A stretch of 64,000 nucleotides of DNA from an uncultured virus (IMG/VR IMGVR_UViG_3300031963_000086) (taxonomy: Duplodnaviria > Heunggongvirae > Uroviricota > Caudoviricetes), in IMG/VR virus record IMGVR_UViG_3300031963_000086; one strand, written 5' to 3'. Below, in pieces: positions 19,347-64,000 of this stretch; position 1 is the first letter of the stretch, and each line of letters begins with the position of its first letter. The position numbers were made by a program, and so were the translations under genes. The notes beneath the pieces are model-generated. The model worked only from the letters and a program-made list of their open reading frames with translations, was not told where the DNA came from and did not search any database.

Positions 19347-19723
19347 TCCGCGTCTAATTCGGTTTCGGGATTAACGGGCGTAACCGCTTCGGTGGCTTCT
19401 ACTTTCGCTTCTTCTACGATAGTACCAACGATGGCTATAATTTCACCATTTTCGTTTTGGCGAACATCAAAATGCTCTCCCTTTAACAACATATGGTGAT
19501 TGTAAAGTCCACTAGGAACTATACCACTCCAACTACTTACCGAACACATAGCGTTAAAATGGTCTACGGCAAACACTTCGCCCTCCTCCATTTTTTCAAA
19601 ATTGTGTTCACCATCATAGGCGGGTTTTATCTCACCTACTATTACGCGCCATCTCTTTGGCGAATTTTCGGGGTAGTCCATATTGAAACGAACCAACACC
19701 ACTTTATTTTCTAATGTTATCAT
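19343..19723 (-). CDS. Hypothetical protein
   Basis: Overlaps both neighbours within the operon. Confidence 0.6.
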   Translation of the reverse strand: MITLENKVVLVRFNMDYPENSPKRWRVIVGEIKPAYDGEHNFEKMEEGEVFAVDHFNAMCSVSSWSGIVPSGLYNHHMLLKGEHFDVRQNENGEIIAIVGTIVEEAKVEATEAVTPVNPETELDAE

Positions 19724-43176: not shown

Positions 43177-46100
43177 TATTTCATTGCTTTTGCACGTTGT
43201 AAAGCATCTTTCCATGCTTCACCCTCTTTGCGTATTTGTTTTGCTTTTGTGAAAATATCCACCCCACGCTTTTCTTTGGTATTCATATTTGGGTTCTTGA
43301 TAACCTCCGCCCAAATGTTTTCCCATCCGTTTGCTTTGGCTACCGCATAAGTAGAGTTGCCATCGTACACGCGATACTTACCTTGGCTCTTGTAAAGAGT
43401 GATAGGCTTGCGCTTATCCATTTTGCCATCGTAAGCCATCTTCATATATTTCTCGGCATTAGCGATACCCTCCGCACGCGCGCGAAGCGGAATTATGTTC
43501 GACATAGGAATAACCTTTGTACTACGGGTCTTGATGAAATACTTGCCCAAATCTTCGGGGAGTTCGCCTCCGTGTTCCATCTTGGCAAGTTGTTGGCGAT
43601 ACACTTTTGACGCTACTTTTTTTCCAACTTCCTTGGCTTCTTTTTTGTCGTAGGTTTTACCATACTCATCTTGATATTTGGGGGCTACCTTTTTGCCTTC
43701 GTAATTCTTGGCAACCTTATTAGAAAGTCCCTCAAATCCAATTTTGCCACCTTCGGCAAATGGCACTATTGGCAAATCCACATTTTTTGGATTCCAATTA
43801 GACGTGTAGCCAAACTTAGCCTTACCTTCTTCAAACATTTTAACGTAGTTTTTGTACTCCGCTTCACCATTGTAGCCACGCAAGGCAAGGTAGTTTCTTA
43901 AACTATGCTCATTCTCATCGGTAAGCACATCGCTTACTTTTTTCCTTTCGGCTTTGGTAAGTTGCTTGTAAATTTTATTAATCCCCAACCTTTGATACTC
44001 ATCGGCTAAATCTTGTTGCAAGGTGTCGGATGCGTAAATTTCACTTCCGCTTTGAATTGATAATTTGTCCCACGCTTCATTAGATAATGCGGTCAATTGG
44101 TTGGCAACCTCATTCTTGTCAAACTTGGCTTTTGTTTCATTCATCCCCGCATCTACAAGTGCTTTTTTGCTCACCCAAAATCCATTCTTAGGCTTGAACT
44201 CAATAGTTTCTTTGTTGTTGCTATCACGATATACCACTTGATTAACATCGGCTCTTTTGATGTAGGTGTAGCCTTTTGACAAACTACCACCATCTTCCAT
44301 TTTGTGCAACCCGTCAAGGAAATCCTTTTTATCAATTGTTAAATAATCCTTTGACCCGCTCTTATTGGGGTTTTTAATAACGATTAATTTCAAGTCCCTT
44401 CTATTGGTGTAATCGCCCGTTGGTTTTTTTGCATTTTTATTCGCAAAATACAGATATGATTCTTTGTAAGCATAATCAATACTTATCGGCTTACCACCAC
44501 GTCTACCATTTTTAAAATATTGTGTTCTATCAGCATATGGATTGTATTTTGCTTTGTACATAATATTATCCTCTCCCCAATACGGGCTTCTTACATCGGG
44601 AAGTGTTTTCTTAAATTCTTCTAAGGACATTATTTGCCCACCTTTGGCGTATTCCTCATCCTTGAAAAACTCCAACTCTTCCGCGGAATATGTCTTTTCC
44701 GAACCATCGGGGAATTTCAAATGAAATCTACGACCATAAGGCTTAATGACATAACCCATTTTGTTTTCTTCTATCACCAATGCTTTGTCACCCACAAACA
44801 CATCTTGCCATTTAACTTTACCACCATCGGCCATGTAGCCACCTTTGGCATACTCCCCCTCCCTTGTGTGATTCGCAAATCTATTTTTAATGTCTTTGTC
44901 CAACCCTTTCCAATCGGAATTGTATGCTTCAATAATTTCTTTATTCTTTAATTCTTCATCTCCGCGATACGCTTCAATAATATCTCGGTGGTCATACAAA
45001 AAATGTTGTCTTTGAGATTTTGTCAAGTTGTTCCAAATGTCTTCGGGGGTTCTACCATCATATTGGTCTACGATTTTACCACCTTTGGCCATTTTGTAAT
45101 AGTCATCTTTGAAATCTTCATAAGCATTTTCCCACGCCTCAATTTCATTATTCCCATATTTGGCCATCGCAATTTTGCTACCTCCATTATACCACCATTT
45201 AGTAAATTTCTCGTGAACTCCCGATTTTCTATCTCGGTCTAAATATTTGGCTTCTATGGTAGAATCAATTTTTGCAAAATCTTCCGCATCTAAATAACCT
45301 TTTGACTCAAAAGCATTATTGTAATCTTCTTCAGTCAATTGACCACCATCGGCCATATAGCCACCATTCATGAAACTACGATACATCGTTATACCCTTTT
45401 CGTCTTCAACAACGATGCGGGTATTACTCGGCATTACATTACGCTTTAACGAAGCGAAAACCATAGCCGTTTCAAAGTCGGGGAAAGTGTTGTGTACTCT
45501 TCTTGAACCATCCCCTTTGATTTCAATAACGGAATACTTTTCTTGAAACTTATCGCTTGGGTGAATCAATCCACCATCTTCTAACCAAGGTTTAGAGCCA
45601 TAGGTGGGGGCTTTTCTATCAATGCGGTTTTCGCGATACTCATAGTACCTACGACCTCCTTTTGACTTGCCGTATTGGTTACTCCAACCCTTTTGAGAAA
45701 CTCTCCTACCGCTCTCGCGTGCCTTTCTTTCGCTATCAATCAATGGGTCACTCTTTCCACCACCTTTGCTTCTTCTAGCACTATTAAAGTCCTTGAATAA
45801 AGGGTCGTTGGCAATCGTGTCCATCAAAGAATCCAACTTGCTCTTTGTCGCTTGAGCAACTTGCTTTTTTTGAGCGGGGGTTTTAGGCTTTGCGGGTTCT
45901 TCGGTCTTGAAAATGTCCGCATTTTTTGCCTTTGCTTTCGCTATAAATACATCCAATAACTTTTCGGCCTTGGCTTGGTTTTCTTCGTTCTTGTCATTGT
46001 TAAGTGCTTTCTCAATTTTGGCAAGTAAATCTTTTGACTCTTGTACCTTGATTTTTGATTTATCAATGGAGTCAAGTTTCTTTTTGGTTGATTCTTTCAT
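43176..46100 (-). CDS. Polyvalent protein (974 aa) with ~10 [MFYL]xxGG linkers and a C-terminal ParB/Srx-like domain
   Basis: MADGG/YAKGG/MEDGG/FAEGG/MEHGG repeats; KPITL..YRVYDGN near the end. Confidence 0.7.
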   Translation of the reverse strand: MKESTKKKLDSIDKSKIKVQESKDLLAKIEKALNNDKNEENQAKAEKLLDVFIAKAKAKNADIFKTEEPAKPKTPAQKKQVAQATKSKLDSLMDTIANDPLFKDFNSARRSKGGGKSDPLIDSERKARESGRRVSQKGWSNQYGKSKGGRRYYEYRENRIDRKAPTYGSKPWLEDGGLIHPSDKFQEKYSVIEIKGDGSRRVHNTFPDFETAMVFASLKRNVMPSNTRIVVEDEKGITMYRSFMNGGYMADGGQLTEEDYNNAFESKGYLDAEDFAKIDSTIEAKYLDRDRKSGVHEKFTKWWYNGGSKIAMAKYGNNEIEAWENAYEDFKDDYYKMAKGGKIVDQYDGRTPEDIWNNLTKSQRQHFLYDHRDIIEAYRGDEELKNKEIIEAYNSDWKGLDKDIKNRFANHTREGEYAKGGYMADGGKVKWQDVFVGDKALVIEENKMGYVIKPYGRRFHLKFPDGSEKTYSAEELEFFKDEEYAKGGQIMSLEEFKKTLPDVRSPYWGEDNIMYKAKYNPYADRTQYFKNGRRGGKPISIDYAYKESYLYFANKNAKKPTGDYTNRRDLKLIVIKNPNKSGSKDYLTIDKKDFLDGLHKMEDGGSLSKGYTYIKRADVNQVVYRDSNNKETIEFKPKNGFWVSKKALVDAGMNETKAKFDKNEVANQLTALSNEAWDKLSIQSGSEIYASDTLQQDLADEYQRLGINKIYKQLTKAERKKVSDVLTDENEHSLRNYLALRGYNGEAEYKNYVKMFEEGKAKFGYTSNWNPKNVDLPIVPFAEGGKIGFEGLSNKVAKNYEGKKVAPKYQDEYGKTYDKKEAKEVGKKVASKVYRQQLAKMEHGGELPEDLGKYFIKTRSTKVIPMSNIIPLRARAEGIANAEKYMKMAYDGKMDKRKPITLYKSQGKYRVYDGNSTYAVAKANGWENIWAEVIKNPNMNTKEKRGVDIFTKAKQIRKEGEAWKDALQRAKAMK

Positions 46101-52358: not shown

Positions 52359-55300
52359 TTATTTATTAATTAAACCCCCCTTAGCCATCAAGAAACCTTG
52401 GTTGGCGGAATATAGCATTTTGCTTCTTTGATTACTTGCAAGTTTTGTTTGGTTCGGGAAGAATGTAGTCCATACCTCCGTTTGATATTGGTTGCCCGTT
52501 GCTTGTGGGTTATTCTCATAAAAATGAAATCCATCATAAACACCTTGCGCTTTGATTGCTTCAATAGCCCTTGGGGAGTTACGGATGTAAGCCCAAACTT
52601 CCATTGGTGGCACATTTGGTTGTAAAAAACGTGCATCAAAACCTAATTGCTCGGCCGTTTGACCCGTCTTGACAAATAAGTAGTCAAAGAAATCTTTTGG
52701 TTCTATTTTATCAATACCAAAATAGGTCATATCCAATGGGTTTCTAATGTTCAAGAAAAATGGCAATACATATCCTTGAGTTGCATTCCTTTGCCCCTTA
52801 ATCGTAGCAAACCATTCGGCATAATCGGGATTGACCGCAAAATACGATGTTGGAAAAGAATCAAACCTTTCACGCTCAAACGCTCTACCTAATCCTTGAT
52901 AAACCACAAGTGGCTCATAACCTTCGGTCATCACTTTACTCACGGGTACGATATTATCATATCCCGACAATCCCTTAAAGTCATATGCACTTGCAAAATC
53001 ACCAAACCACTCTTTAAAAATTGTGGTTTGAGCCAAATCATAATTGTATTTATCCAACAATGTTTCTTGACCATTTGGTTGAAAACCATCGCCATATGGG
53101 GGCGTGAAATCGGGCCTATCTCTCAAAGTGACACTATCGGCATCAAGCATTGTTTGTATAATAGCCATAGCGTATTTCCCGTCATAATTTGCGCTTGAGG
53201 ACTTTATCAAATCTTGGGAGTTTTCGGTAGCGTAAATGATGTCTTTTAGTTTTTGGAACTCGGTCAATTGTTGACGCAACTTCATTTTTACCTCAAAGTC
53301 AAAATCCGATGTTATAGAGATAAGATATTGCAAGTCGTAAATATTCTTGTCCAACTCGCTCTTGTTACCCAAAGGCTTTTTGTTTTTGCCCACGGGTGGT
53401 TTTTTGCTTTGAACTTCTTGCGGTTTTTCCAATTCCACCACATCACTTGCCTCTAACAAAACCAAATCTTTGGCTTCCCATTCTCCTTTTAATTCACCAA
53501 CTTTGTCGGGGACAAAATACCGAATTGTGTACATATTGCCTTCGGGATTTGCGGGTCTTTTCATTGCGGGTACGGAACGGATTCCAATTACTTCACCACG
53601 CAATAAATCAAGATTTTCATCACGACCTTGGAAACCCACAATTTGCATTTCTTGTTCCGAAATTTCCACTTTGTCACCAACTTTCAAGTTTTGCTCAATT
53701 CGTACCTCCATACTTCCCTTCGCCTTGGATGTTTGGCTCACATAGTTGGCTCTATAATAAAGCACACTAACCATAAGCCAATTGTACCATATAGTACCTT
53801 CATATATTTTTAATTCAAAGTCATCAAAATCTAATACCATTTTGACATCCTCTATCATCATTGGCTCTTCATCAATATTGTAAATTGGCCTTATGATAGG
53901 AAAATCATTTTCATTGCAAAATCTCGCCAATAAATAGCCAACTACTCTACAATAATCATCTATTGATAATTTGATGTTGAAATCAATTATTCCACTTTCA
54001 AACCACTTCTTCCAAGTTGTTGGGTCATTGTAAAACTGATAACCCATTTTATCGAATAAATAGTAAAGTATATTTGCGCCACCTAAATTTTCTACTCTAT
54101 CTATAATTAATTTTGGAACTCCATATTGTTGTTTTTTGTTTAACAATAATGTTCTTGATGGTTGACTTGTAATCATTTCTAGATTACGCATACCTATTCT
54201 TGGGTCAAACGACATTTCAATACCCGTATTTTTTTGAATTGTTACCAATTCTTTTACGGGTATATCCAAGTATCGGTCTTCATAAAAAGGTGCGTTTGGA
54301 TTATTTATATCGGTAGTGTAATATTCCCTTACAATTTTACTTATTAAATCAACTAAAGAATTATTGCCGTCATTTTTTACTAGTTTATTATTGTATGCTT
54401 TAATATCATAACTACTACCAAATTTTAATGATTTAACACCATATTGGAACTTGTCTTCTTTTTTGGCGCGGGTCACTTTCTTTTTAACACCTTCTTGATA
54501 AACAAAATTTGGCTCTAATGCTTCATACTCATTAAAAAACTCTAATATTTGATTTTGAAAATCGCGATTGCTCACAAGCCATTCAAATTTAGTTCTTGTA
54601 TCCGTATTATATTGAGATGGCACACTTTGTAGGCCATTGTCCAAAATGGCCGTAAACCTATCATACATGGCCATAGTGCCTTGCATCCGAGGTATAAGCA
54701 TGGATTTTTTCGGTATTTGACTAAATGTCCTTGGAGAACCATAAGTAGCACTCGTGTCTTGTGGTTCAATTAAAGTCAAAAAATCCTTTCGGTTGTAGTA
54801 TTGATAACTCGTCTTTGCAACAAATTCAAGTTTTGACCATTTTGTAAATCTCTTAAAAACTGGTCTACCGCTATATTTATTATAAATTTCCGCTCTAAAT
54901 ATTTGCAAATCTTCGGGATTGTCAAATATGTTGACATAATAAAACTCTTCAACCCCTTTTGTTGGGAATACAATCTTATTTTTTAATTTGAAATCGGTCA
55001 CATCGCCACCATACTCAAACTCTATTTCATCCATTTCTCCCATTTCATCAAGTTCTCCACCCAAGGCCATTTCGCTCAAAATATCGTGGTCGGACATCAT
55101 TCTACCCCCGTAGTTGTATTGATTTCCACTCGCCATAATTTCGCCACCATCCTCAAACGATACACCACCCCCGCTTTGGTTAATACGAGAGAGTATTTCT
55201 CGGTTGGTAAGCATTTCACCTTCAAATTCGCGTGTAGTGCCATCGGACACGGCATTGCGTGTGATAACGACTTCCCCGCCTTCCATTTCCAAGGGTTGTC

Positions 55301-57815
55301 CCGTTGCTTTGTTGATTGCTTTGATTCCGCCTTCGGAATGTCTACGACCTACTAAATATCCACCCGCTTTTCCCATCGTGTGTTTTACTTCTTTGTCCAT
55401 ATTACTTAAATTACCACGAATATCCTTATTTTTTGCGACTACTTCGCCACCTTGCTCATACTTCAATAAGTCATCGTCTTGAATATATGCGCTTTTAACC
55501 TTCACGCCCGCCTTCTTCAACAAGAATTTATTCAACCTTGCCAAGCCCCACGCTTGTCGTGAATTAGGCGCACCGCCACCGATAGTTGGTCGATGCGATT
55601 TTGAATATGCCCCCATACCTCTACGAACCACCGCTTTTGCGGTTGACAAACTAACCTTGTCGCTTGGGTGCTTTTCATTGTATTCATCAACCTTGTTCTC
55701 AATGGCTTTTTCTAGCGCATCGTTGAACTTAATTGATTTAGCATTTTGACTATCGCTTGCGCTTCCTTTGGTGTTGGTTTTGCTACCATACCTTCTATCG
55801 GATGCGGGTGCGGGTGTTTGTGCTATTGTGCGACCGCCTTTGTCAAATCTAATATCGGGGTTGCCACTATCAAATGTGGTATTCGTTCCATCGGCAAGTT
55901 TAATTTGGTTTGGTTCAAAAACGCCATAATTTAAGTTAGGTTTTGATTGATTGTTGACTTGTTCGTATGTAATAAATCCATTGTAATTGTTTGATTTTAA
56001 ATAATCTTGCATTACTTCTAACTCTACGACCCCCCAACTTGAATCGGTTTTAGTTAATATGTAAAATAAAAAATCTTCATCCGACATATTACTATCATAT
56101 TTAGATTTCCATTCATCCAAGCCATCCAAATAATTGTACTCTATAAAATCTTGTACTACACTTTCGTTAAAAATAGAACGAATCTTTTTTGACTCACTTA
56201 TTGAAAGTGATTTCGGGTCAAACAATTTAATGGCTTTTAGGAAAAATGGTTTGACACTACCCGTGGTAAAAGTATATCTTTTAGCGTGTTCATATCCTTT
56301 TGAAAAGAAAAACGCTTTGACATTTTCCTCGTCAATCGCATCTAAGTCAAACTCGTAAAATTCTTGGGTATATTTTGTCCCGTGATAAACCACCATTGGC
56401 TCACCATTTTCATCCACTACCTTACTTGCGGTTTTTGGGTCGTTTTCCCAATCTCCAAACCACGCCTTAAATTCGCGTGTACGCACTAACTTGTATTGTT
56501 CGGGCGTTAAGTTACTTTCCTTTCCGTTGGGTGCAATTAAACCACCCTTATCAAATCTAATATCGGGGTTGTTCACGACCTTGTAAAAATCATTGTTGCC
56601 CTCACATATTTCATATCCGTTACTTTGTAGCCAATTTTTAATCATAGCAACATCATCCAAATTTGATTCTATTGAATCATCTTTTGAAAAAGATGCTTTT
56701 TGTGTAATATGACCAAACATTACATCGTGTCCATTTTCTATAGCAAAATCATTCAGATACTTCAAAACCTTTTTACCAATACCTTTTAATCTTTGATTTT
56801 CGGAAATAAATATAGTTTGAATGTACAAAGGATTTTCGGATTTAAGCCCATACAAATTTGCGTGTTTAGGTGTGGTTGGATATACTTTAAGTTCAATTTC
56901 ACCTTGGTCTATTAAATTTTCTATTTCCCCACCTTTGGCAAACCGAATATCGGGATTGTTGCCATCAAAGGTTGTGTTACTACCATCGGCTAACTTGATT
57001 TCATTTGGAGATAGCGCAATAAACGATTTGCCTTTCCCCTCGTATTTGTTGTTGTACACAAACCCGACCGAACTACCATATTTTGATTTAATGTAGTCCC
57101 TAATGATAGCATTATCTTCTCGACTATATAAAGATAAAAACCCTTTTTGTTTTGCAACTTTTTCTTCAATAATGTTATCGGATATTAACTCATCAATATA
57201 TCGTTGTGGATATTGCCATTCTCCCGCATCACTCATTTCAAATAAAACTCTTATGTTTAGGAAAAATGAATTGACGATTGATTTTCTTTTTGGCAAAACT
57301 CCTTTACTTTCTACTCTATTTTTTGCTTGTTCTTTCGTGCCAAAATGAAAACCTAAATCCGCTTTTTGGTAATCAAATATATCAAAGTTGGTTTCAACAA
57401 TAGCCCCATGATGTACCACCAATGGCTCACCATTCTCATCCACTACCTTACTCGCATTTTTTGGGTCGTTTTCCCAATCGCCAAACCACGCCTTAAATTT
57501 GGGTGTGCGAACTAAATGCCATTGTTCGTGTGTTAGGTTACTTGGTTTCCCGTTGGGTGCTAAATGCTTTGACATATCACCACCTAAGTGCATTTTCTCA
57601 ATGTTATCCAATCGGTCATAATAGTCGGGGAACTCTACCAAGTGGTCAAGTGCTATTCGCCTTGCTTCGGCAACGCTCTCGGTGTGTTCAAGTTCGTGTT
57701 TAATACCCTTTTTTAATTGGTGCTTTAATTGCTCGGCATTCATATTGTGTAGTTTTGCTACTTGAGCCAAAGTCATGCCCTCGCTTTTGCCCCCTTTTAA
57801 GTATTTATTTACCAT
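52359..57815 (-). CDS. Giant polyvalent protein (1818 aa): DUF5661-like N-terminus, three ADP-ribosyltransferase-like modules, GNAT, other modules, >=11 [MFY]xxGG linkers
   Basis: FKAWFGD..SKVVDENGEP.VV.HG..F..FL..IK modules; QRLKGIGKKVL GNAT motif; ELEHT..IALDHL.E.PDYY. Confidence 0.75.
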   Translation of the reverse strand: MVNKYLKGGKSEGMTLAQVAKLHNMNAEQLKHQLKKGIKHELEHTESVAEARRIALDHLVEFPDYYDRLDNIEKMHLGGDMSKHLAPNGKPSNLTHEQWHLVRTPKFKAWFGDWENDPKNASKVVDENGEPLVVHHGAIVETNFDIFDYQKADLGFHFGTKEQAKNRVESKGVLPKRKSIVNSFFLNIRVLFEMSDAGEWQYPQRYIDELISDNIIEEKVAKQKGFLSLYSREDNAIIRDYIKSKYGSSVGFVYNNKYEGKGKSFIALSPNEIKLADGSNTTFDGNNPDIRFAKGGEIENLIDQGEIELKVYPTTPKHANLYGLKSENPLYIQTIFISENQRLKGIGKKVLKYLNDFAIENGHDVMFGHITQKASFSKDDSIESNLDDVAMIKNWLQSNGYEICEGNNDFYKVVNNPDIRFDKGGLIAPNGKESNLTPEQYKLVRTREFKAWFGDWENDPKTASKVVDENGEPMVVYHGTKYTQEFYEFDLDAIDEENVKAFFFSKGYEHAKRYTFTTGSVKPFFLKAIKLFDPKSLSISESKKIRSIFNESVVQDFIEYNYLDGLDEWKSKYDSNMSDEDFLFYILTKTDSSWGVVELEVMQDYLKSNNYNGFITYEQVNNQSKPNLNYGVFEPNQIKLADGTNTTFDSGNPDIRFDKGGRTIAQTPAPASDRRYGSKTNTKGSASDSQNAKSIKFNDALEKAIENKVDEYNEKHPSDKVSLSTAKAVVRRGMGAYSKSHRPTIGGGAPNSRQAWGLARLNKFLLKKAGVKVKSAYIQDDDLLKYEQGGEVVAKNKDIRGNLSNMDKEVKHTMGKAGGYLVGRRHSEGGIKAINKATGQPLEMEGGEVVITRNAVSDGTTREFEGEMLTNREILSRINQSGGGVSFEDGGEIMASGNQYNYGGRMMSDHDILSEMALGGELDEMGEMDEIEFEYGGDVTDFKLKNKIVFPTKGVEEFYYVNIFDNPEDLQIFRAEIYNKYSGRPVFKRFTKWSKLEFVAKTSYQYYNRKDFLTLIEPQDTSATYGSPRTFSQIPKKSMLIPRMQGTMAMYDRFTAILDNGLQSVPSQYNTDTRTKFEWLVSNRDFQNQILEFFNEYEALEPNFVYQEGVKKKVTRAKKEDKFQYGVKSLKFGSSYDIKAYNNKLVKNDGNNSLVDLISKIVREYYTTDINNPNAPFYEDRYLDIPVKELVTIQKNTGIEMSFDPRIGMRNLEMITSQPSRTLLLNKKQQYGVPKLIIDRVENLGGANILYYLFDKMGYQFYNDPTTWKKWFESGIIDFNIKLSIDDYCRVVGYLLARFCNENDFPIIRPIYNIDEEPMMIEDVKMVLDFDDFELKIYEGTIWYNWLMVSVLYYRANYVSQTSKAKGSMEVRIEQNLKVGDKVEISEQEMQIVGFQGRDENLDLLRGEVIGIRSVPAMKRPANPEGNMYTIRYFVPDKVGELKGEWEAKDLVLLEASDVVELEKPQEVQSKKPPVGKNKKPLGNKSELDKNIYDLQYLISITSDFDFEVKMKLRQQLTEFQKLKDIIYATENSQDLIKSSSANYDGKYAMAIIQTMLDADSVTLRDRPDFTPPYGDGFQPNGQETLLDKYNYDLAQTTIFKEWFGDFASAYDFKGLSGYDNIVPVSKVMTEGYEPLVVYQGLGRAFERERFDSFPTSYFAVNPDYAEWFATIKGQRNATQGYVLPFFLNIRNPLDMTYFGIDKIEPKDFFDYLFVKTGQTAEQLGFDARFLQPNVPPMEVWAYIRNSPRAIEAIKAQGVYDGFHFYENNPQATGNQYQTEVWTTFFPNQTKLASNQRSKMLYSANQGFLMAKGGLINK

Positions 57816-58018
57816 CGGATTTTACTTGATATTGCTAAATTTTGTTTTCAATTATATATGTTTATCAACAATGATTATCTCTTGTAAATCAATTACATAC
57901 TATGCTAATTAATTTATCAACATCAAAATAATTGACAATAAGATAAAATCATAGTGCAAGTTAGTTATTGTTTGAGCATATTTGTATGTCAAATATAAAT
58001 CATTTGACACAAACTAAA

Positions 58019-58123
58019 ATGACAGGTTTCTTAGACATCAAATCTCCTAATTTCCTTGGCGGTACTAACGTACACTCTTTGGTTATTATCGGATTGCTCG
58101 GCTACATCATCTACAAGAAGTAA
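58019..58123 (+). CDS. 34-aa single-TM protein (MTGFLDIKSPNFLGGTNVHSLVIIGLLGYIIYKK), not in the ORF track
   Basis: Manually translated; A-rich leader and its own terminator. Confidence 0.7.
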   Translation: MTGFLDIKSPNFLGGTNVHSLVIIGLLGYIIYKK

Positions 58124-58169
58124 TTCTTGTTAGGGATGTTTGTCTGCGCAAACCCAAGATTGGGAAGTC

Positions 58170-58201
58170 GGGCGATACGGAATGTGTCGCCCTTTTCTTT
58201 T
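58170..58201 (+). terminator. Intrinsic terminator
   Basis: GGGCGATAC/GTGTCGCCC stem plus TTTTCTTTT. Confidence 0.75.
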
Positions 58202-58320
58202 ATACGAAAAAAGGGAGTCCAACACCCCCCTTTATTCGATATTAAGAAATGATTAATTTATCCAAACAGTACATGGAACTTTGAATCCCCAAGTGATTCG
58301 GGTTATTGTTGGCTAACCTT

Positions 58321-58394
58321 TGGTGCGGGGGTAGAAATCGAATCTACTACCTCGTGGTTATGAGCCACGGATGCAACCATTACACCACCCCGCA
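58321..58394 (-). tRNA. tRNA-Met(CAT), initiator-like acceptor stem
   Basis: Cloverleaf: TGCGGGG/CCCCGCA acceptor, CGTGG-CTCATAA-CCACG anticodon arm, GTAGA-TTCGATT-TCTAC T-arm. Confidence 0.9.
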
Positions 58395-58401
58395 CTCTTA
58401 T

Positions 58402-59169
58402 TTAGAAGAAACGCAATTTCTCGCCCCTCTCCTTAAAGTTGTATATTTCCTCCAACAAAGTTAAGTAACCTTTCGTATCGGTGCAATCAACTAATTTAGT
58501 TTGTTGGTATTGCAACTTTGCGACAAGTTGTTTGAAGTCGAATTGACGATTTGAATACAACTTGGAAAGCGCATTGATAAAAGACCTCCGCTTTACGCCA
58601 CCATACATCGGTTCTATTTGTTTAACCCAACCCGCCACAACCGCACCTCTTCCTTTATTTGGCAAGGTCATTTTACCATCCATAATGTTTTGCGCTTTGT
58701 CACCACCCATGTTTGAAAGTAATTGTACGGAGTTTGTCATTCCCAATTTGTGTTCCTTGATAAAAGAACGCAAGAATAAATACTCTTCTTTGCCCATGTC
58801 GCAATAGCCATCTACATAGTCCTCCAATCTCCAATTTTTCATATTGGCGTTTAACATTTGTACCTCGCGCAAACCATACCCAACCTTGAGTATGTAATGA
58901 ATTGGCTTTTTGAGTTCTTTGCACACCTCAAATCGGTGTTGGCCATCAATAATCTCAAAGTTTTCATTCACCAAAATTGGATTGGTTTCGGTCAAATCCG
59001 TTTCGGCAATTGACTTTTTCAACCTCTCTTGGTGCATTTTGTTGAGTTGGCGGTTTCCTTGAATAAAAGAAAACCTTTCGTAGTTGGTGGTGCGGTAAAC
59101 TTGGCTTACCACAACATCCCGCACTTGAGTACCTTCCGTTCTCATTGGTGCATCTTCTTGGTTTAACAT
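58402..59169 (-). CDS. ParB/Srx-like N-terminal domain protein
   Basis: GNR, NPILVNENFEIIDGQHRF; TACCTTTG box at 59192-59199. Confidence 0.8.
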   Translation of the reverse strand: MLNQEDAPMRTEGTQVRDVVVSQVYRTTNYERFSFIQGNRQLNKMHQERLKKSIAETDLTETNPILVNENFEIIDGQHRFEVCKELKKPIHYILKVGYGLREVQMLNANMKNWRLEDYVDGYCDMGKEEYLFLRSFIKEHKLGMTNSVQLLSNMGGDKAQNIMDGKMTLPNKGRGAVVAGWVKQIEPMYGGVKRRSFINALSKLYSNRQFDFKQLVAKLQYQQTKLVDCTDTKGYLTLLEEIYNFKERGEKLRFF

Positions 59170-59258
59170 ATTGAATATTTGTTTGACAATTCAAAGGTAA
59201 TGTTATCTCTAAAAATAACAAGAACTTTTTGAAAAAACTTTGTGAATGACCGATTCCT

Positions 59259-59402
59259 TTATTCTATGGTCGCATTATAGAACGAATTGTACATTGGTCG
59301 CTTCTCTTTTATCTTTTCACAAGCCTCTTCGTAGGTATTGGCTTTTACCAAAACCAAGTTGGTGGGGCTATCAACCCCACAACCTATTAAATAGTAGTTC
59401 AT
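59259..59402 (-). CDS. 47-aa hypothetical protein (MNYYLIGCG...), not in the ORF track
   Basis: ATGA overlap with the glycosyltransferase stop. Confidence 0.45.
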   Translation of the reverse strand: MNYYLIGCGVDSPTNLVLVKANTYEEACEKIKEKRPMYNSFYNATIE

Positions 59403-60661
59403 AATTTGAGCAATCGTTTAATTGACAATTTCCATTGGTCGGCAATCTTATCCCAATTGTACTCCGCAAACTTATGCTCGTAATTTTTAATACTCACCTT
59501 ACGCGTGGCACTATCTTTCCAAGCGTTTATCATTTGTTCGCAAACGCTTTTTGGGTGCAATACCAACCGCACATTCTCGGCATCTTCTATTTGAAAGTGA
59601 GGCACTAGGTCATTTACGATATAAACCAAATCGCCATTATCGGTTATCTCGGTCAAAGAGGTGTGGTTGCCACAAATAATTGGCAAACCTACGCTCATCG
59701 CTTCGGTGATGGTCAATCCCCACCCTTCGGCCGTGGTCGTAGACACGAAACAATCCAAACAATTGTACACCTCATTCATCTCTTGAGTCGAATAGGAGTT
59801 GCTATTGTATTTGTCCTCTATCGGCAAAAACACATCCTTGCCAATTACCAATCCAAGTCGCTCACACGCTACATACACTTTAATGCCCGTTTTGTCGGAG
59901 TGATAACAATGCAAGTATAATCCAACTTTTGATGGTCGGTTGGGGGTTACGGGTTGGCTCTCAAACCATTGCTTAAATTCCGCAAACGCTAACAAGGTTG
60001 TACCGATGTCTTTGCGCGGTTGGTTCTTATTGATGTTTCCGAATACAAACATATCTTGAGGGATGTCGTATTTGGCTCTCAATGATTGTTTATCAAACAA
60101 TGGTTGAAACTCGTATCTATCCATTCCGTGCGGGATAATACCAATTTTCATTTTGCGGTTATTAACTTTTTGAAATGCTTTTTCCGCTTCCCTACGCCCA
60201 TAATCGGTGTAAGTGAACACTTCATCCCATACATCCAAATCTTTGAAATATCGCGCAAAGGGTACGCTATCAATCGGGGTGTACATCAACATTTTGAACT
60301 CCTTTTGTTTTTGGAATTGCTTTTGTTGACGGACATGGCGTAAGATTGGCGACATCGGCCCAAGTACGGGTACATCATTCATAGCCCACAATAGGTCGTA
60401 ATCGCCCACTTGCAACATTTTTAACACACCATCGCGATAATAGTAATCCTCTTCGTTACGCGCAAACATACGCGGGTTAACGGCCATGATTTGCTCGTTA
60501 TACACTTCGCTTTGGCGGTTTCCAAAATTCAAACACGCTACATCTACTTCTACGCCCACCCGCTTGAACCAAGGTGTCAATCTATCCATTACGTTGTGGG
60601 AAACAGTTCCGAAGCCCGTAGGACACATAAAGTCCATGTACGCTAATATCTTTTTTGTCAT
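59399..60661 (-). CDS. GT4-family glycosyltransferase
   Basis: PTGFG.V, IPHG, N.NQPRK, EGWGL..TEAM..G.P. Confidence 0.85.
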   Translation of the reverse strand: MTKKILAYMDFMCPTGFGTVSHNVMDRLTPWFKRVGVEVDVACLNFGNRQSEVYNEQIMAVNPRMFARNEEDYYYRDGVLKMLQVGDYDLLWAMNDVPVLGPMSPILRHVRQQKQFQKQKEFKMLMYTPIDSVPFARYFKDLDVWDEVFTYTDYGRREAEKAFQKVNNRKMKIGIIPHGMDRYEFQPLFDKQSLRAKYDIPQDMFVFGNINKNQPRKDIGTTLLAFAEFKQWFESQPVTPNRPSKVGLYLHCYHSDKTGIKVYVACERLGLVIGKDVFLPIEDKYNSNSYSTQEMNEVYNCLDCFVSTTTAEGWGLTITEAMSVGLPIICGNHTSLTEITDNGDLVYIVNDLVPHFQIEDAENVRLVLHPKSVCEQMINAWKDSATRKVSIKNYEHKFAEYNWDKIADQWKLSIKRLLKL

Positions 60662-60665
60662 ATGT

Positions 60666-61727
60666 CTATTGTAATATTGTATTGTAAATATTCTCTGCTA
60701 CTGATTTCATCATCAAAGGAGGTACACTTCTTCCTAACCTTTCCCATTGTTGCGCATAATTCCCCGTCAATATGTAATCTTTGGGAAACGAGCATATCAC
60801 TTTCAACTCATCAATCGTGAACCTATTTGTATCATCCGACTTCATTTTGCTGATTTCCATGTCGGTTTTATCATCGTAAAAACCTTTCCGCTTTATTCGA
60901 TAAACTCTTGTAGCACCTAATCCCCTTGTTAGTATTGTAAAAGAAACATCATCTAGTCCAAGCGTAGTTATTTGCCCCCATTTAGCAAACCCATCACTAC
61001 ATATCATTTTTTCAATTTCGCCTCCAAATGCCTTTCCCAAGGTATTAATTTCTTGATTGGGTTTCGGGAATGATATTTTCTTTTCTAGGTCATTCCTTAC
61101 TCCAATAAATATTGTCCTTTCCCGCGATTGGGGAACATTGTAATTTTTGGCATTTAAAACCATAAAGCGAACATTGTAGCCACAATTTACAAGCGAGTGG
61201 TAAATGGTGCTATCTTGACTATCAAACATATCAAATTGGTCACTACCCAACAACTTACTTGATGCCCCTTGGGTTAATCCCTTCACATTTTCAGCAACAA
61301 AAACTTTGGGTTGAATCTCTTTCAACAATCGTGCAAATTCAAAAAACAAGTCATCTACCCTTTGCTCGGTGCTTGAGTATTTTTTCACTTGCCCCCACAT
61401 TTTCTCTTTTTTACCCGCAGTTGAAAATGATGCGCATGGCGGTGAACCATCCAATATATCCAACTCACCACGCTTTAATCCGATTTGGTTTAATATCATA
61501 TCCCCCGTCAATTCACGAATGTCTTGTTTGAAAATATGAGTATCGGGATAGTTGGCTTGGTAGGTGTCTTGCGCTTCTTGTAAAAATTCATTAATCGCCA
61601 ACACTTTGCCTCCCGCAAGTTTGTAACCCGTACTACTACCACCCGCCCCCGCGAATAAACTAACGACATTGAATAACTCCTTTTGAGATTGTTCATGTAC
61701 CAATCTCATATCGTAGTTCGTGTTCAT
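60666..61727 (-). CDS. C5-cytosine DNA methyltransferase fold; predicted carboxymethyltransferase
   Basis: FAGAGG (I), GSPPC (IV), ENV (VI), QSRER (VIII); motif X is GRSVPP instead of GN(S/A)VPP. Confidence 0.85.
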   Translation of the reverse strand: MNTNYDMRLVHEQSQKELFNVVSLFAGAGGSSTGYKLAGGKVLAINEFLQEAQDTYQANYPDTHIFKQDIRELTGDMILNQIGLKRGELDILDGSPPCASFSTAGKKEKMWGQVKKYSSTEQRVDDLFFEFARLLKEIQPKVFVAENVKGLTQGASSKLLGSDQFDMFDSQDSTIYHSLVNCGYNVRFMVLNAKNYNVPQSRERTIFIGVRNDLEKKISFPKPNQEINTLGKAFGGEIEKMICSDGFAKWGQITTLGLDDVSFTILTRGLGATRVYRIKRKGFYDDKTDMEISKMKSDDTNRFTIDELKVICSFPKDYILTGNYAQQWERLGRSVPPLMMKSVAENIYNTILQ

Positions 61728-61972
61728 AATTCCGTTTGGATTTCTACTGAATCCGTGTGTATTCTTAAATAAAGAGATGTGCCGAACATTCCAAGGGTGT
61801 TGTTGTATTTCTTTTTTGTCAACTCGAATGCCTCCTTGTTTTCATAGGGCTTATTGGTTGCATCTTTAACGATGCCAATACGCTTTGATAATTTCCTACG
61901 CTCGTTTAATAATTGAATAATTTGGTCATCAATTTCACTCAATTCGTTTCGCAATATTTCTAAACTTTCCAT
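61724..61972 (-). CDS. Chorismate mutase (AroQ, type II)
   Basis: LEILRNELSEIDDQIIQLLNERRKLSKRIGIVK. Confidence 0.75.
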   Translation of the reverse strand: MESLEILRNELSEIDDQIIQLLNERRKLSKRIGIVKDATNKPYENKEAFELTKKKYNNTLGMFGTSLYLRIHTDSVEIQTEL

Positions 61973-61973
61973 A

Positions 61974-62624
61974 TTATTTAACCGCTAAGTAACCAATGAA
62001 ATTAAAAGATTGCCAAAAGGTCGTAACCTTTTCAAAACCCGCATCTTTGAGCATCTTTAAAATCTCGACATTTGTATTTGGCTTCATGATTGAGCGCAAA
62101 TCTTTTTCTTTTGAATAAATTGTCGATGGAGAAAAGTTATTCTCTTTATAATCGTAGTGACTGAATGAAAAAACCTCTTGAAACCACCCATGCTTTTGAT
62201 AGATTTTTTCGCATAAAAACAATGCCCCGCCATCTACAAGCCCTTCATAAATGGTTTCCAAATAATTACTCCTTTCACTCTTTTTAAGAAATTGCATGGT
62301 GAAAATACTATACACTATACACGCATCATCTATATCCCAAAAATTTGTATTCAAATCTTCGCTAAGAAAAGATATTGGTTCATCATTGTCCTTTGGTAGC
62401 AAGTTTATACTTAGGTCAATACCTACCTTGGAGTTTTCATAAGGTAATGACTTCAATAATTTGCCCGTAGAACAACCAAGGTCATAAATTGTGGTGTCTT
62501 CCACTACAAAATAAGAACTCATACTATGAATCATATTCCATAGAATATCGTAGTTAGGTATAGATTGGAGAATGTGTTGGTCGAAATCTTGAATTGTATC
62601 AAAACTGAATTTTTCGTTTGTCAT
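61974..62624 (-). CDS. cmoA: CmoA-like carboxy-S-adenosylmethionine synthase
   Basis: FSFD...FD.HI..SIP.Y, YDLGCSTG, FTMQFL...R, L..GG.L.L.EK, AGF....FWQ.FNF....A.K. Confidence 0.8.
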   Translation of the reverse strand: MTNEKFSFDTIQDFDQHILQSIPNYDILWNMIHSMSSYFVVEDTTIYDLGCSTGKLLKSLPYENSKVGIDLSINLLPKDNDEPISFLSEDLNTNFWDIDDACIVYSIFTMQFLKKSERSNYLETIYEGLVDGGALFLCEKIYQKHGWFQEVFSFSHYDYKENNFSPSTIYSKEKDLRSIMKPNTNVEILKMLKDAGFEKVTTFWQSFNFIGYLAVK

Positions 62625-62644
62625 AATCTAGGGAGGGGTAATAT

Positions 62645-62944
62645 TTACAACATTTGGATTTTGGGTTTTGCTTCCGCGTTCTCTAGCGGAAACTTTTGGG
62701 CTTGAACTTCGCAAGTTTGAATGAACACCAACTTGCCATCGTTTTCCAACGCAATCAACGCGCGGGTGCAATGTGTTGTGCAATGCTCGTAGACGGGTAC
62801 AAAATCTCCCGTTAGTTGGTTTGGTATAATGTTAGCACCTACTTTATGGCACTTGCAAGGCTGACCATCCTTGAGTAACATTTTACCTCCTTTGATTGTG
62901 TTGTACTCTCCTATTGAGTATTTATGAATATATTCTAGTGACAT
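62645..62944 (-). CDS. Hypothetical Cys/His-containing protein
   Basis: 99-aa ORF after a TATATTTG box at 62950-62957. Confidence 0.6.
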   Translation of the reverse strand: MSLEYIHKYSIGEYNTIKGGKMLLKDGQPCKCHKVGANIIPNQLTGDFVPVYEHCTTHCTRALIALENDGKLVFIQTCEVQAQKFPLENAEAKPKIQML

Positions 62945-62979
62945 ATATGCAAATATAGATTATTTTCAAAAATAACAAA

Positions 62980-63696
62980 CTATTGCACCAAATAAATATC
63001 CCCATATTTATCCTCACCCCAATAATGAACCCAATCGGGGTATTGAGTAGGTAGCAATTCCGCAATCCTTGGTGTGTTCAAAGCACTTGCAATAGCAAGG
63101 GGCGCACTTTGGTTTCCCATAAACCTATTGCTTTTTGCAATGTATGTAAACCAATCCTCCATCGTTTGTGGAACGACCAATTGACACATATCCTTTAGTG
63201 GGAATAAATCGTAATCGTGTTGGCTTCCAAGGAATATGGTTTTTTCGTGTTGTTGAATTTGCATCAAATAAGAATCGCGAATATGGTCGCTCATCGGGTT
63301 TTTGTATCTCCGATTAATGACAAGGGTGTCATTCCAATCACGAACTTCATTGTAAGTCATCCAAGCACCACTTACGGGTTCATCATTCGGGAAAAAGGTA
63401 AGCGACATTATTTCAGTCCAACACCTCCGATACAAATGCGGACTTGTTCTAAACAAAGTCGTATTGTACTCGATAGGTTGACCTTCCCAAATTTCAAATC
63501 CTTCATTCCCCTTTTGTTGACGAATTATCGGCCTTAACTCCTTTCGGGTATTGTGAACACCATTCTCAAAAGGCTCTACAACTTCGGTAATGTAAATCTT
63601 TGACCTTTGCCCGTGGCGAACCCACAAATGGTTCGCCACATACATAGAGTGAATCAAATCACCCAACTTGCCACTTACTAAAATGCTACTTGCCAT
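62980..63696 (-). CDS. GT9-like glycosyltransferase
   Basis: SGKLGDLIHS, FMGNQSAP.AIA.AL..PR. Confidence 0.65.
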   Translation of the reverse strand: MASSILVSGKLGDLIHSMYVANHLWVRHGQRSKIYITEVVEPFENGVHNTRKELRPIIRQQKGNEGFEIWEGQPIEYNTTLFRTSPHLYRRCWTEIMSLTFFPNDEPVSGAWMTYNEVRDWNDTLVINRRYKNPMSDHIRDSYLMQIQQHEKTIFLGSQHDYDLFPLKDMCQLVVPQTMEDWFTYIAKSNRFMGNQSAPLAIASALNTPRIAELLPTQYPDWVHYWGEDKYGDIYLVQ

Positions 63697-63937
63697 ACAT
63701 TTTACTATCGCCTTGCTTGTAAAGTTTTTGTTGCTCTCCTTTGGCAATGGCGTTCATCTCTTCGTCAATGGCTTGGATTAAGTCATTCCGTTGTTGGTTG
63801 GCAATGTTTGTGGTGCGCGTGGCCTTCGCAATATCGGCATCCGTTGCTTTGGGGTCGCGCTTTATATCCTCGGCCATCCAAATCTTGATGTTTACGATGG
63901 ATAGTTGGTCAATCAAGTTTCCTATGGTCACTTTCAT
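63686..63937 (-). CDS. Small helical protein of the type found in glycosyltransferase clusters
   Basis: TIG.LID.LSI..IKIW..ED....N.QRN.LI..ID. Confidence 0.6.
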   Translation of the reverse strand: MKVTIGNLIDQLSIVNIKIWMAEDIKRDPKATDADIAKATRTTNIANQQRNDLIQAIDEEMNAIAKGEQQKLYKQGDSKMYGK

Positions 63938-64000
63938 TTCAAGTCCTCCTTGGTGTAAATTCTAAATTGTGGGCAAGGAACGATGAACGCGCCTCCTTTT

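What the first reader, a model, noticed from the sequence alone, without database searches (positions are those of the whole stretch)
60666..62624. Complete predicted pathway to 5-carboxymethylcytosine DNA: chorismate mutase + CmoA + C5-MTase with Asn->Arg in motif X
Seen: three tightly coupled genes, cmoA-like (61974-62624), chorismate mutase (61724-61972) and a C5-cytosine MTase (60666-61727) whose motif X reads LGRSVPP (Arg codon 60729-60731) instead of GN(S/A)V. Established: chorismate mutase makes prephenate; CmoA converts prephenate + SAM to carboxy-SAM; the engineered motif-X change N374K in M.MpeI turns it into a carboxy-SAM-using DNA carboxymethyltransferase. No CmoB tRNA enzyme is seen in the window. 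Inference: the virus diverts shikimate-pathway flux to make its own cofactor and writes 5cxmC as an anti-restriction mark. I recall natural phage carboxymethyltransferases being reported, so the novel parts may be the dedicated chorismate mutase and this viral lineage. Caveat: by my recollection of E. coli CmoA (KR199SMLE), the Arg here is shifted four residues (KEKDLR).
Basis: partly seen in the sequence, partly recalled or inferred. Interest (0 to 1): 0.95.

Follow-up and report, generated by a model that had tools for sequence, protein, structure and literature searches.

The report
Phage carboxymethylcytosine operon with chorismate mutase
An uncultured phage carries the enzyme pair, published in 2025, that puts carboxymethyl groups on DNA cytosines, plus a small chorismate mutase wedged between the two genes that probably makes the precursor the chemistry consumes.

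Summary
Three tightly packed minus-strand genes encode:
- a CmoA-type carboxy-SAM synthase (61974-62624);
- an 82-aa AroQ chorismate mutase (61724-61972);
- a C5-cytosine transferase (60666-61727) with the SPPC catalytic motif, in which Arg333 (codon 60729-60731) replaces the motif-X Asn.

The core is already published. The transferase's best solved relative is SpCmoX of Synechococcus phage S-B43 (PDB 8YF3, E 2e-69). Arg333 aligns with SpCmoX Arg350, the residue that binds the carboxymethyl group (Yang et al., Nat Commun 2025, PMC12783734).

The chorismate mutase is the part I could not find in print. The paper never mentions one and calls prephenate supply an open question.

The link recurs. 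Among 68 non-redundant phage or metagenome cmoA loci, 14 carry a chorismate-mutase domain inside the cassette. Nine are stand-alone and five are fused to DAHP synthase. All 14 fall within the 39 loci where an SPPC-type cmoX follows cmoA.

Caveat: this mutase family lacks the Glu52 equivalent of the E. coli enzyme, and no activity was measured here.

No amide ligase (CmoY) is in the window, so plain 5cxmC is the predicted product. This scan noted the same add-on before in other phages.

The parts
61974..62624 (-). cmoA: carboxy-SAM (Cx-SAM) synthase, 216 aa
   Evidence: TIGR00740 CmoA E 2.2e-30. E. coli CmoA structures 4IWN/4GEK E ~1e-22 over the full length. 36.8% identity to validated SpCmoA of phage S-B43. 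Shares 46 invariant columns with SpCmoA and four other phage CmoA sequences, including K172 E173 L176 R177.
61724..61972 (-). AroQ-class chorismate mutase, 82 aa (predicted prephenate supplier)
   Evidence: PF01817 E 3.5e-10. A family profile hits 1YBZ at E 9e-15 and 1ECM at E 3e-11 over the full length. The model has pLDDT 94.9 with three helices. All top Foldseek matches are AroQ mutases or PchB, TM 0.75-0.86. Homodimer model ipSAE 0.80 against best control 0.00.
60666..61727 (-). cmoX: DNA cytosine C5-carboxymethyltransferase, 353 aa
   Evidence: PF00145 E 2.6e-53. Best PDB hit is 8YF3 SpCmoX, E 2.1e-69, residues 4-352 against 4-369. 40.4% identity to S-B43 CmoX.
60729..60731 (-). Arg333 codon (AGA) in motif X, predicted to bind the Cx-SAM carboxylate
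   Evidence: Read directly. Aligns with SpCmoX R350 in GRMVPP, and with the Asn of GNAVP in M.HaeIII. The role of R350 comes from the paper.
61434..61436 (-). Cys98 codon of the GSPPC motif IV (catalytic nucleophile)
   Evidence: Position computed. Aligns with the SPPC of SpCmoX, where the paper names Cys98 as the nucleophile.
58402..59169 (-). ParB-like protein, 255 aa, a frequent companion of cmoX cassettes (role unknown)
   Evidence: phrog_12305 ParB-like, E 3.1e-33. Relatives sit beside cmoA in L056 and about 2 kb upstream in L060, L062 and L063. The paper reports 1660 ParBc proteins on CmoX contigs.
59399..60661 (-). GT4 glycosyltransferase, 420 aa, directly downstream of cmoX. Link to the DNA modification not supported
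   Evidence: PF00534 E 2.1e-10; phrog_2170. Among the 110 related loci it appears only in the window's twin L034. Phage relatives are annotated glycosyltransferases in unrelated siphophages.

Best explanation
This is a phage DNA-hypermodification operon of the published CmoA-CmoX type, extended by its own precursor-supply enzyme.

Proposed mechanism:
1. The AroQ chorismate mutase, acting as a homodimer, converts host chorismate to free prephenate. This bypasses the host's fused, feedback-controlled mutases. (Inferred.)
2. CmoA uses prephenate plus SAM to make carboxy-SAM. (Inferred from homology to the validated SpCmoA.)
3. CmoX attacks cytosine C6 with Cys98 and transfers the carboxymethyl group to C5. 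Arg333 holds the cofactor's carboxylate, and the product is 5-carboxymethylcytosine in phage DNA. (Inferred from homology to crystallised SpCmoX.)

No CmoY-type amide ligase is present in the 64 kb, so the predicted end product is plain 5cxmC rather than the glycine amide of S-B43. The mark most likely protects the DNA from host restriction. The target motif is unknown.
For: Transferase (CmoX):
- 8YF3 is the top solved relative, E 2.1e-69, full length. GSPPC is present and Arg333 aligns with SpCmoX R350.
- The paper shows that wild-type SpCmoX accepts only Cx-SAM and that R350 contacts the carboxymethyl group (Results section, read).
- Every full-length SPPC-type cmoX beside cmoA whose C-terminal motif I could read has G-R there. 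L028 could not be read because its ORF has a long C-terminal extension.

CmoA:
- Closest phage relative is the validated SpCmoA, with the same K-E-K-x-L-R pattern.
- SpCmoA itself scores only 115.6 bits on TIGR00740, under the 193.3 cut-off, much like the window's 106.1.

Mutase:
- Supported by the full-length profile match to solved AroQ mutases, the fold and the dimer model. The dimer model scored 0.80 against a best control of 0.00. That mark was reached by 20 of 30 proteins solved as pairs and 1 of 23 solved as single chains. The runs shared at least 98% of contacts and partner pLDDT was at least 84. The pass may come from memory of solved AroQ dimers.
- Residues aligned with EcCM R11, R28, K39, S84 and Q88 are kept as R8, R25, K36, S75 and Q79, and are invariant or nearly so in 19 relatives.

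Linkage:
- 110 cmoA loci (30 viral, 80 metagenomic) collapse to 68 clusters at 95% or more CmoA identity.
- 14 of the 68 carry a mutase domain. All 14 fall within the 39 clusters where SPPC-type cmoX follows cmoA, and none within the other 29 (my count).
- The domain always lies inside the cassette: between cmoA and cmoX in 13, and just after cmoX in L041.
- Five are DAHP synthase-mutase fusions (Pfam for L005, L009 and L021; the other two by BLASTP and my own HMM). The DAHP synthase model scores E 9.4e-39 against 1.4e-8 for KDO8P synthase.
- Presence is scattered on the CmoA tree among near neighbours, which indicates repeated gain or loss.
- The complete S-B43 genome has no PF01817 match, while the same search hit 13 of 14 control genomes.
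Against: - No activity was measured.
- The window's mutase lacks equivalents of EcCM D48, R51 and E52, which read N45, A48 and F49. None of the 14 cassette mutase domains has Glu at the E52 position. Eight of 14 keep the R51 Arg and nine of 14 keep the D48 Asp. The catalytic roles of those E. coli residues are recalled, not tested here.
- Pfam matched only the first 49 of 80 profile positions in the single-sequence scan.
- 25 of the 39 comparable cassettes, and phage S-B43, manage without any mutase. The gene is therefore an optional booster, not a requirement.
- CmoA scores below the NCBIfam equivalog cut-off.
- The contexts of the mutase's nearest relatives (P0124-P0127, 36-61% identity) could not be retrieved, so I cannot show that this mutase clade is confined to cmoA cassettes.
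- The split of the CmoA tree into a mutase-bearing clade (14 of 37 rows) and a mutase-free clade (0 of 20 rows) is weakly supported, at 79/83.
Confidence: 0.72

Rival explanations
1. The 82-aa AroQ-like protein is not an active mutase. Instead it binds prephenate or chorismate, acting as a regulator or delivery subunit for CmoA, or as a PchB-like lyase. The cassette then relies on host prephenate.
For: No Glu at the EcCM-E52 position in any of the 14 cassette domains. In the window's subgroup the D48 and R51 equivalents are also replaced. Isochorismate-pyruvate lyase PchB structures are also matched, more weakly (E 2e-5; TM 0.67-0.80). Top Foldseek hits include the entry titled 'chorismate mutase like domain' of B. 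subtilis DAHP synthase.
Against: Five core binding or catalytic positions (R8, R25, K36, S75, Q79) are conserved. Mutases score far better than PchB. Sister cassettes fuse the domain to DAHP synthase, a fusion type that NCBIfam annotates as bifunctional DAHP synthase/chorismate mutase.
Confidence: 0.17
2. The final base is not plain 5cxmC. An unrecognised enzyme in this phage, outside the known CmoY ligases, elaborates the carboxyl group further.
For: In S-B43 only the glycine amide was found in virion DNA, not 5cxmC (paper). The paper describes 5cxmC as a handle for hypermodification. Many window ORFs have no family match. A GT4 gene follows cmoX after 4 nt.
Against: No Asn-synthase-type ligase in the 76 ORFs scanned or by tblastn. 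Most sister cassettes are cmoA directly followed by cmoX, with nothing between them. The GT4 is not linked to cmoX in any other locus.
Confidence: 0.15
3. The transferase is an ordinary SAM-dependent 5mC methylase, and CmoA serves something other than DNA, such as tRNA or a small molecule.
For: CmoA is a tRNA-pathway enzyme in bacteria (paper introduction, passages seen). PHROGs labels the family 'tRNA methyltransferase'.
Against: No CmoB in the window. Arg replaces the motif-X Asn exactly as in SpCmoX, which accepts only Cx-SAM. cmoA and cmoX are adjacent across dozens of loci.
Confidence: 0.04

Closest known systems
CmoA-CmoX(-CmoY) system of Synechococcus phage S-B43 (Yang et al., Nat Commun 2025, PMC12783734; SpCmoX structure PDB 8YF3)
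   Same: Same two core enzymes in the same order and on the same strand. CmoX has SPPC and the Arg that replaces the motif-X Asn. CmoA has the phage-type K-E-K-x-L-R pattern. A ParB-like gene lies nearby, as the paper reports for many contigs.
   Different: Identity is only about 37-40%. The window has no CmoY ligase. A chorismate mutase occupies the slot between cmoA and cmoX where S-B43 has cmoY. S-B43 has no mutase anywhere in its genome. The target motif is not known here; it is GC in S-B43.
Engineered M.MpeI N374K carboxymethyltransferase (as cited in PMC12783734; the original paper was not read here)
   Same: A basic residue replaces the motif-X Asn, which lets a C5-MTase fold use Cx-SAM (paper discussion).
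   Different: The window's enzyme is natural, not engineered. It has Arg rather than Lys and is a different MTase lineage. M.MpeI targets CG.
E. coli chorismate mutase domain EcCM (AroQ, PDB 1ECM) and Pyrococcus furiosus mutase (1YBZ)
   Same: Three-helix AroQ fold and predicted helix-1-mediated homodimer. Equivalents of R11, R28, K39, S84 and Q88 are present.
   Different: It is about 10 residues shorter and stands alone in a phage. The D48, R51 and E52 equivalents are replaced, and a His (H72) that is universal in the phage family sits at the I81 position.
Type I-beta DAHP synthase with a C-terminal chorismate mutase domain (bacterial bifunctional enzymes; NCBIfam NF009239/TIGR01361)
   Same: Five sister cassettes carry exactly this two-domain protein between cmoA and cmoX.
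   Different: The window has only the mutase and no DAHP synthase. The phage fusions sit in a DNA-modification operon, not an aromatic amino-acid operon.

Membership tests
CmoX (DNA cytosine C5-carboxymethyltransferase, Yang et al. 2025) | C5-cytosine methyltransferase fold and family | tested here: met
   PF00145 E 2.6e-53 over 323 of 324 profile positions. 8YF3 E 2.1e-69.
CmoX (DNA cytosine C5-carboxymethyltransferase, Yang et al. 2025) | SPPC motif with the catalytic Cys (one of the paper's two search criteria) | tested here: met
   GSPPC with Cys98, aligned to the SPPC of SpCmoX.
CmoX (DNA cytosine C5-carboxymethyltransferase, Yang et al. 2025) | Arg at the position of SpCmoX R350 / M.HhaI N304 | tested here: met
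   R333 in LGRSVPP aligns with R350 in VGRMVPP. M.HaeIII has GNAVP there. The codon was read.
CmoX (DNA cytosine C5-carboxymethyltransferase, Yang et al. 2025) | Genomic association with cmoA | tested here: met
   cmoA lies 250 nt upstream in the same operon.
CmoX (DNA cytosine C5-carboxymethyltransferase, Yang et al. 2025) | Cx-SAM-dependent formation of 5cxmC in DNA | not testable with these tools
   Needs LC-MS of DNA, or an in vitro assay.
CmoA (carboxy-SAM synthase) | Score above the NCBIfam equivalog cut-off (TIGR00740, 193.3 bits) | tested here: not met
   106.1 bits. The biochemically validated SpCmoA also fails, at 115.6 bits, so the cut-off does not separate active phage enzymes.
CmoA (carboxy-SAM synthase) | Full-length homology to a validated Cx-SAM synthase, with shared conserved residues | tested here: met
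   E. coli CmoA 4IWN E 5.8e-22, residues 12-216. SpCmoA 36.8% identity, E 1e-37. 46 invariant columns in the six-sequence alignment.
CmoA (carboxy-SAM synthase) | Prephenate + SAM to Cx-SAM activity | not testable with these tools
   Needs an enzyme assay.
AroQ chorismate mutase (PF01817) | Pfam gathering score | tested here: met
   40.4 bits against a cut-off of 27, though only profile positions 1-49 aligned. The family profile aligns over the full length to 1YBZ and 1ECM.
AroQ chorismate mutase (PF01817) | Three-helix fold forming an intertwined homodimer | tested here: met
   Model pLDDT 94.9 with helices 4-39, 46-60 and 62-81. Foldseek TM 0.75-0.86 to AroQ structures. Dimer model 0.80 against best control 0.00, possibly from memory of solved dimers.
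AroQ chorismate mutase (PF01817) | Active-site residues equivalent to EcCM R11', R28, K39, S84 and Q88 (roles recalled from the literature) | tested here: met
   R8, R25, K36, S75 and Q79.
AroQ chorismate mutase (PF01817) | Equivalents of EcCM D48, R51 and E52 (roles recalled from the literature) | tested here: not met
   N45, A48 and F49 in the window. None of 14 cassette domains has Glu at the E52 position.
AroQ chorismate mutase (PF01817) | Chorismate to prephenate activity | not testable with these tools
   Needs an assay or genetic complementation.

The most novel reading that the evidence does not exclude
Phages that write carboxymethylcytosine have repeatedly recruited shikimate-pathway enzymes into the modification operon itself. 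The recruit is either a stand-alone, feedback-free chorismate mutase or a whole DAHP synthase-mutase fusion. Either way the virus rewires host aromatic metabolism to make a nucleic-acid cofactor rather than amino acids. The mutase family involved works without the canonical Glu52, perhaps using the family-wide His72 instead. If true, this answers the prephenate-supply question that the discoverers of CmoX left open, and it supplies a ready-made three-gene module for host-independent DNA carboxymethylation.
Probability: 0.6. Interest if true: 0.62.

Novelty: new variant of a known kind. Interest (0 to 1): 0.52.

Why it matters
The CmoA-CmoX discoverers wrote that prephenate availability across hosts needs investigation (Discussion). 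This window and 13 further non-redundant cassettes show that many phages answer that need with their own chorismate mutase or DAHP synthase-mutase fusion.

If CmoX here targeted GC sites as SpCmoX does (not tested), this 64-kb stretch alone would need 5,204 carboxymethyl groups per copy. Each group costs one prephenate and one SAM. A supply enzyme is therefore plausible.

On the practical side, the three-gene module could raise 5cxmC yields in heterologous hosts used for the sequencing and DNA-labelling methods built on this base.

For annotation, small "hypothetical" AroQ genes next to cmoA can now be named.

Tried and rejected
Searches that found nothing:
- Near-identical DNA in GenBank phages: none for 58000-64000.
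- Mutase relatives in GenBank phages by tblastn: none at E <= 1e-3.
- The same search at E <= 10 gave 15 records. None of them is among the 30 listed rows of the 70 cmoA-bearing records (the other 40 rows were not listed).
- Close relatives of the mutase or of CmoA in IMG/VR by single-protein query: none.
- Contexts of the nearest mutase relatives P0124 and P0126: none found.
- No whole genome is held for the window.
- In one search, L034, L037 and L040 were not held and so were not searched.
- The prokaryote genome scan gave one 1,080-bp contig, so there is no host call for the window's clade.

Searches with limited return:
- The word-index protein search found only 2 mutase relatives.
- The exhaustive HMMER search found 27 at E <= 1e-3 among 1.84 billion representatives.
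- The mutase alignment A2 was too variable for a locus scan.

Ideas tested and dropped:
- The 76-aa gene upstream of cmoA in S-B43 might have been a hidden mutase. There is no similarity.
- The GT4 gene after cmoX might have been part of the modification pathway. I rejected this for lack of any recurrence.

Rows left out:
- Eleven of the 68 CmoA clusters were left out of the tree because they were truncated or short: L033, L036, L050, L052, L066, L070, L071, L075, L093, L107 and L110.
Full report
**The observation.**

- The 353-aa product of 60666-61727 matches the C5 DNA methylase family end to end (PF00145, E 2.6e-53).
- The 82-aa product of 61724-61972 passes the Pfam cut-off for type II chorismate mutase (40.4 against 27 bits). 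In that scan only the first 49 of 80 profile positions aligned.
- The 216-aa product of 61974-62624 matches the CmoA equivalog model at E 2.2e-30, but scores below its cut-off (106.1 against 193.3 bits).

Reading the DNA shows a tightly coupled operon. The cmoA TAA is followed by one base and then the mutase ATG. The mutase stop overlaps the transferase start as ATGA. The Arg codon AGA sits at 60729-60731 within E-R-L-G-R-S-V-P-P.

**The core system is already published.**

A full-text search for 5-carboxymethylcytosine returned Yang et al., Nat Commun 2025 (PMC12783734). I read its abstract, Results and Discussion. The paper reports the following:
- In Synechococcus phage S-B43, a phage CmoA makes carboxy-SAM.
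- A C5-methyltransferase homolog, CmoX, transfers the carboxymethyl group to cytosine in GC sites.
- Arg350 replaces Asn304 of M.HhaI and contacts the carboxymethyl group in the 1.9 Å structure 8YF3.
- Wild-type CmoX accepts only Cx-SAM.
- An Asn-synthetase-like ligase, CmoY, adds glycine.
- The authors' bioinformatics found 5,615 CmoX, 4,257 CmoA, 2,251 ligases and 1,660 ParBc proteins.

**The window's transferase is a CmoX.**

- Its best solved relative by far is 8YF3 (E 2.1e-69, residues 4-352 against 4-369). The next hit, M.HaeIII, is at E 2.5e-20.
- In that alignment GSPPC aligns with the SpCmoX SPPC.
- Arg333 aligns with Arg350, which I checked by counting back from the alignment end at residue 369.
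- M.HaeIII has G-N-A-V-P at the same place.
- Identity to S-B43 CmoX is 40.4%.

- E. coli CmoA structures match over the full length (E about 1e-22).
- The nearest cultured-phage relative is S-B43 CmoA (36.8% identity, E 1e-37). The paper showed this enzyme to be a tenfold faster Cx-SAM synthase than the E. coli enzyme.
The window reads K-E-K-D-L-R and the validated SpCmoA reads K-E-K-E-L-R. K172, E173, L176 and R177 are invariant across six phage CmoA sequences.
- SpCmoA also falls under the TIGR00740 cut-off (115.6 bits), so that cut-off does not exclude active phage enzymes.

**The chorismate mutase.**

The protein belongs to a small, isolated family:
- The word-index search found two close relatives, at 96% and 85% identity.
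- The exhaustive HMMER search found 27 proteins at E <= 1e-3 among 1.84 billion representatives.

Profile, fold and dimer evidence all point to AroQ:
- A profile built from 19 of these relatives matches solved AroQ mutases over their whole length (1YBZ E 9.3e-15; 1ECM E 3e-11).
- The AlphaFold model is confident (pLDDT 94.9) and has three helices.
- Its top Foldseek matches are all AroQ mutases or the related lyase PchB, with TM-scores of 0.75-0.86. Foldseek E-values stay above 1e-3, as expected for a short helical protein.
- A homodimer model scored 0.80, against 0.00 for the best of three controls. That mark was reached by 20 of 30 proteins solved as pairs and 1 of 23 solved as single chains. 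The runs shared at least 98% of contacts and partner pLDDT was at least 84. Because AroQ dimers have been solved, the pass may reflect likeness only.

Active-site residues, using 1ECM numbering taken from the alignment coordinates:
- Kept: R8, R25, K36, S75 and Q79 align with R11, R28, K39, S84 and Q88. The catalytic roles of those E. coli residues are from my recollection of the literature.
- Not kept: N45, A48 and F49 stand where EcCM has D48, R51 and E52.
- Among the 14 cassette mutase domains, none has Glu at the E52 position. Eight keep the Arg and nine keep the Asp.
- A His (H72, at the EcCM I81 position) is universal in the family.

This is the main reason my confidence in mutase activity is not higher.

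**Is the mutase linked to the system, or a chance neighbour?**

I aligned 40 CmoA relatives and used the alignment to fetch 30 loci from IMG/VR and 80 of 96 matches from metagenome contigs. One of them, L034, is a 100% twin of the window region. I then searched all stop-to-stop ORFs of these loci with an HMM built from the mutase alignment, and with BLASTP using the window's proteins.

Results:
- Every mutase hit lay inside a cmoA-cmoX cassette on the same strand, and none lay elsewhere in the loci.
- Collapsing to 68 clusters at 95% or more CmoA identity, 14 clusters carry a mutase domain.
- Nine are stand-alone proteins of 82-107 aa. Eight sit between cmoA and cmoX, and one (L041) sits just after cmoX.
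- Five are the C-terminal domain of a roughly 320-aa protein whose N-terminal 245 residues are a DAHP synthase. Pfam PF00793 plus PF01817 confirmed this for L005, L009 and L021. L049 and L111 were assigned by BLASTP and my own HMM.
- NCBIfam favours DAHP synthase (E 9.4e-39) over KDO8P synthase (1.4e-8) for the fusion.
- By my count, all 14 fall among the 39 clusters in which an SPPC-type cmoX follows cmoA. None falls among the other 29.
- On a CmoA tree of 57 representatives, the mutase-bearing rows are scattered among near neighbours that lack the gene, for example L037 against L004 and L040 against L010. All lie in the 37-row half that contains the window, but that split is weakly supported at 79/83.

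Three different architectures at the same operon position, with a patchy distribution, argue for repeated recruitment for a shared purpose. The only prephenate user in sight is CmoA.

**What else occupies the cmoA-cmoX slot.**

Six of the ten intervening ORFs I tested are Asn-synthase-like CmoY candidates (L021, L028, L031, L033, L053, L073). L069 has a UDG-family gene there. L021 reads cmoA, DAHP synthase-mutase, cmoY, cmoX. S-B43 has cmoY in the slot. It has no PF01817 match anywhere in its 213,993 bp, while the same search found the family in 13 of 14 control genomes.

**What the window lacks, and its wider context.**

- No CmoY, DAHP synthase or CmoB was found, so plain 5cxmC is the predicted product.
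- A ParB-like gene lies 1.5 kb downstream (phrog_12305). This matches the ParBc association the paper reported.
- The window itself looks like an uncultured tailed phage. It has a tail-spike or virion-protein PHROG, RecT, DUF932 and a polyvalent ART protein. It has no near match in GenBank phages.

**Novelty.**

The following checks found no published link between a chorismate mutase and the phage CmoA-CmoX system:
- The paper's main text has no occurrence of "chorismate" or "mutase".
- Its four held supplementary files have none of "chorismate", "mutase", "DAHP", "prephenate" or "PF01817".
- No paper in the library combines chorismate mutase, CmoA and phage.
- The five papers that combine chorismate mutase and carboxy-SAM concern tRNA or rRNA hydroxylation, anaerobic ubiquinone synthesis or enzyme engineering. 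I judged this from their titles and abstract beginnings only.

Subscription-only papers are not covered by these searches.

Earlier agents of this scan reported the same add-on in four other phage genomes. None of the indexed notes mentions the DAHP synthase fusion inside cmoA-cmoX cassettes.

**Verdict.**

The core is already known. The mutase or DAHP synthase add-on is a new, recurrent variant, supported by comparative genomics but untested biochemically.

Noticed in passing
L089:1662-2792; also L055:5606-6820, L020:1352-2332 and about 30 further loci: A second C5-methyltransferase-like family is linked to cmoA. It usually lies directly upstream of cmoA; in L055 it lies downstream. It has G-F-P-C or S-F-P-C instead of SPPC in motif IV, but again G-R in motif X (ERCGRTITI or NIAGRSICV). 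The paper's SPPC filter would have missed these candidate carboxymethyltransferases. None of them has a mutase.
   Followed up: partly
L002:3848-4234 (Proteus phage PM2); L003:3860-4237 (Morganella phage Rgz1): T4-like Straboviridae carry a roughly 128-aa chorismate-mutase-like gene immediately upstream of the gene annotated as thymidylate synthase/dCMP hydroxymethylase or as putative deoxycytidylate. No cmoA is nearby. This is a different and unexplained pairing of an AroQ domain with a DNA-modification gene.
   Followed up: no
window 59399-60661 (-): A GT4 glycosyltransferase starts 4 nt after the cmoX stop. It recurs in none of the other cmoA loci except the twin L034. Its phage relatives are glycosyltransferases of Tetrasphaera phage TJE1 and Synechococcus siphophages.
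   Followed up: partly
window 18520-20541 (-): A run of a cytidylyltransferase-like gene, an APS-kinase-like gene, an unknown ORF and a sulfotransferase. This may be a phage-encoded sulfation module.
   Followed up: no
window 52359-57815 (-) and 42061-43215 (-): An 1818-aa polyvalent protein with three ART-PolyVal stretches and DUF5661, and a 384-aa protein with a RelA/SpoT nucleotidyltransferase domain.
   Followed up: no
L069:1030-1566: A uracil-DNA-glycosylase-superfamily gene sits between cmoA and cmoX in one cassette (PF03167, E 2.3e-24).
   Followed up: no
L114 (1,080-bp contig): The only hit in the 185,579-species genome collection is a tiny contig in a Candidatus Fonsibacter lacus MAG (43% identity, same range as the upstream-methylase group, 42-47%). 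It may be a phage fragment binned with a freshwater SAR11 relative, so it is a weak host hint for that other clade only.
   Followed up: no
window 62645-63937 (-): Upstream of cmoA lie a 99-aa ORF with no match, a 255-aa ORF with a faint heptosyltransferase-like tail (E 0.0015) and an 83-aa DUF4254 protein. All recur only in the twin locus L034.
   Followed up: no
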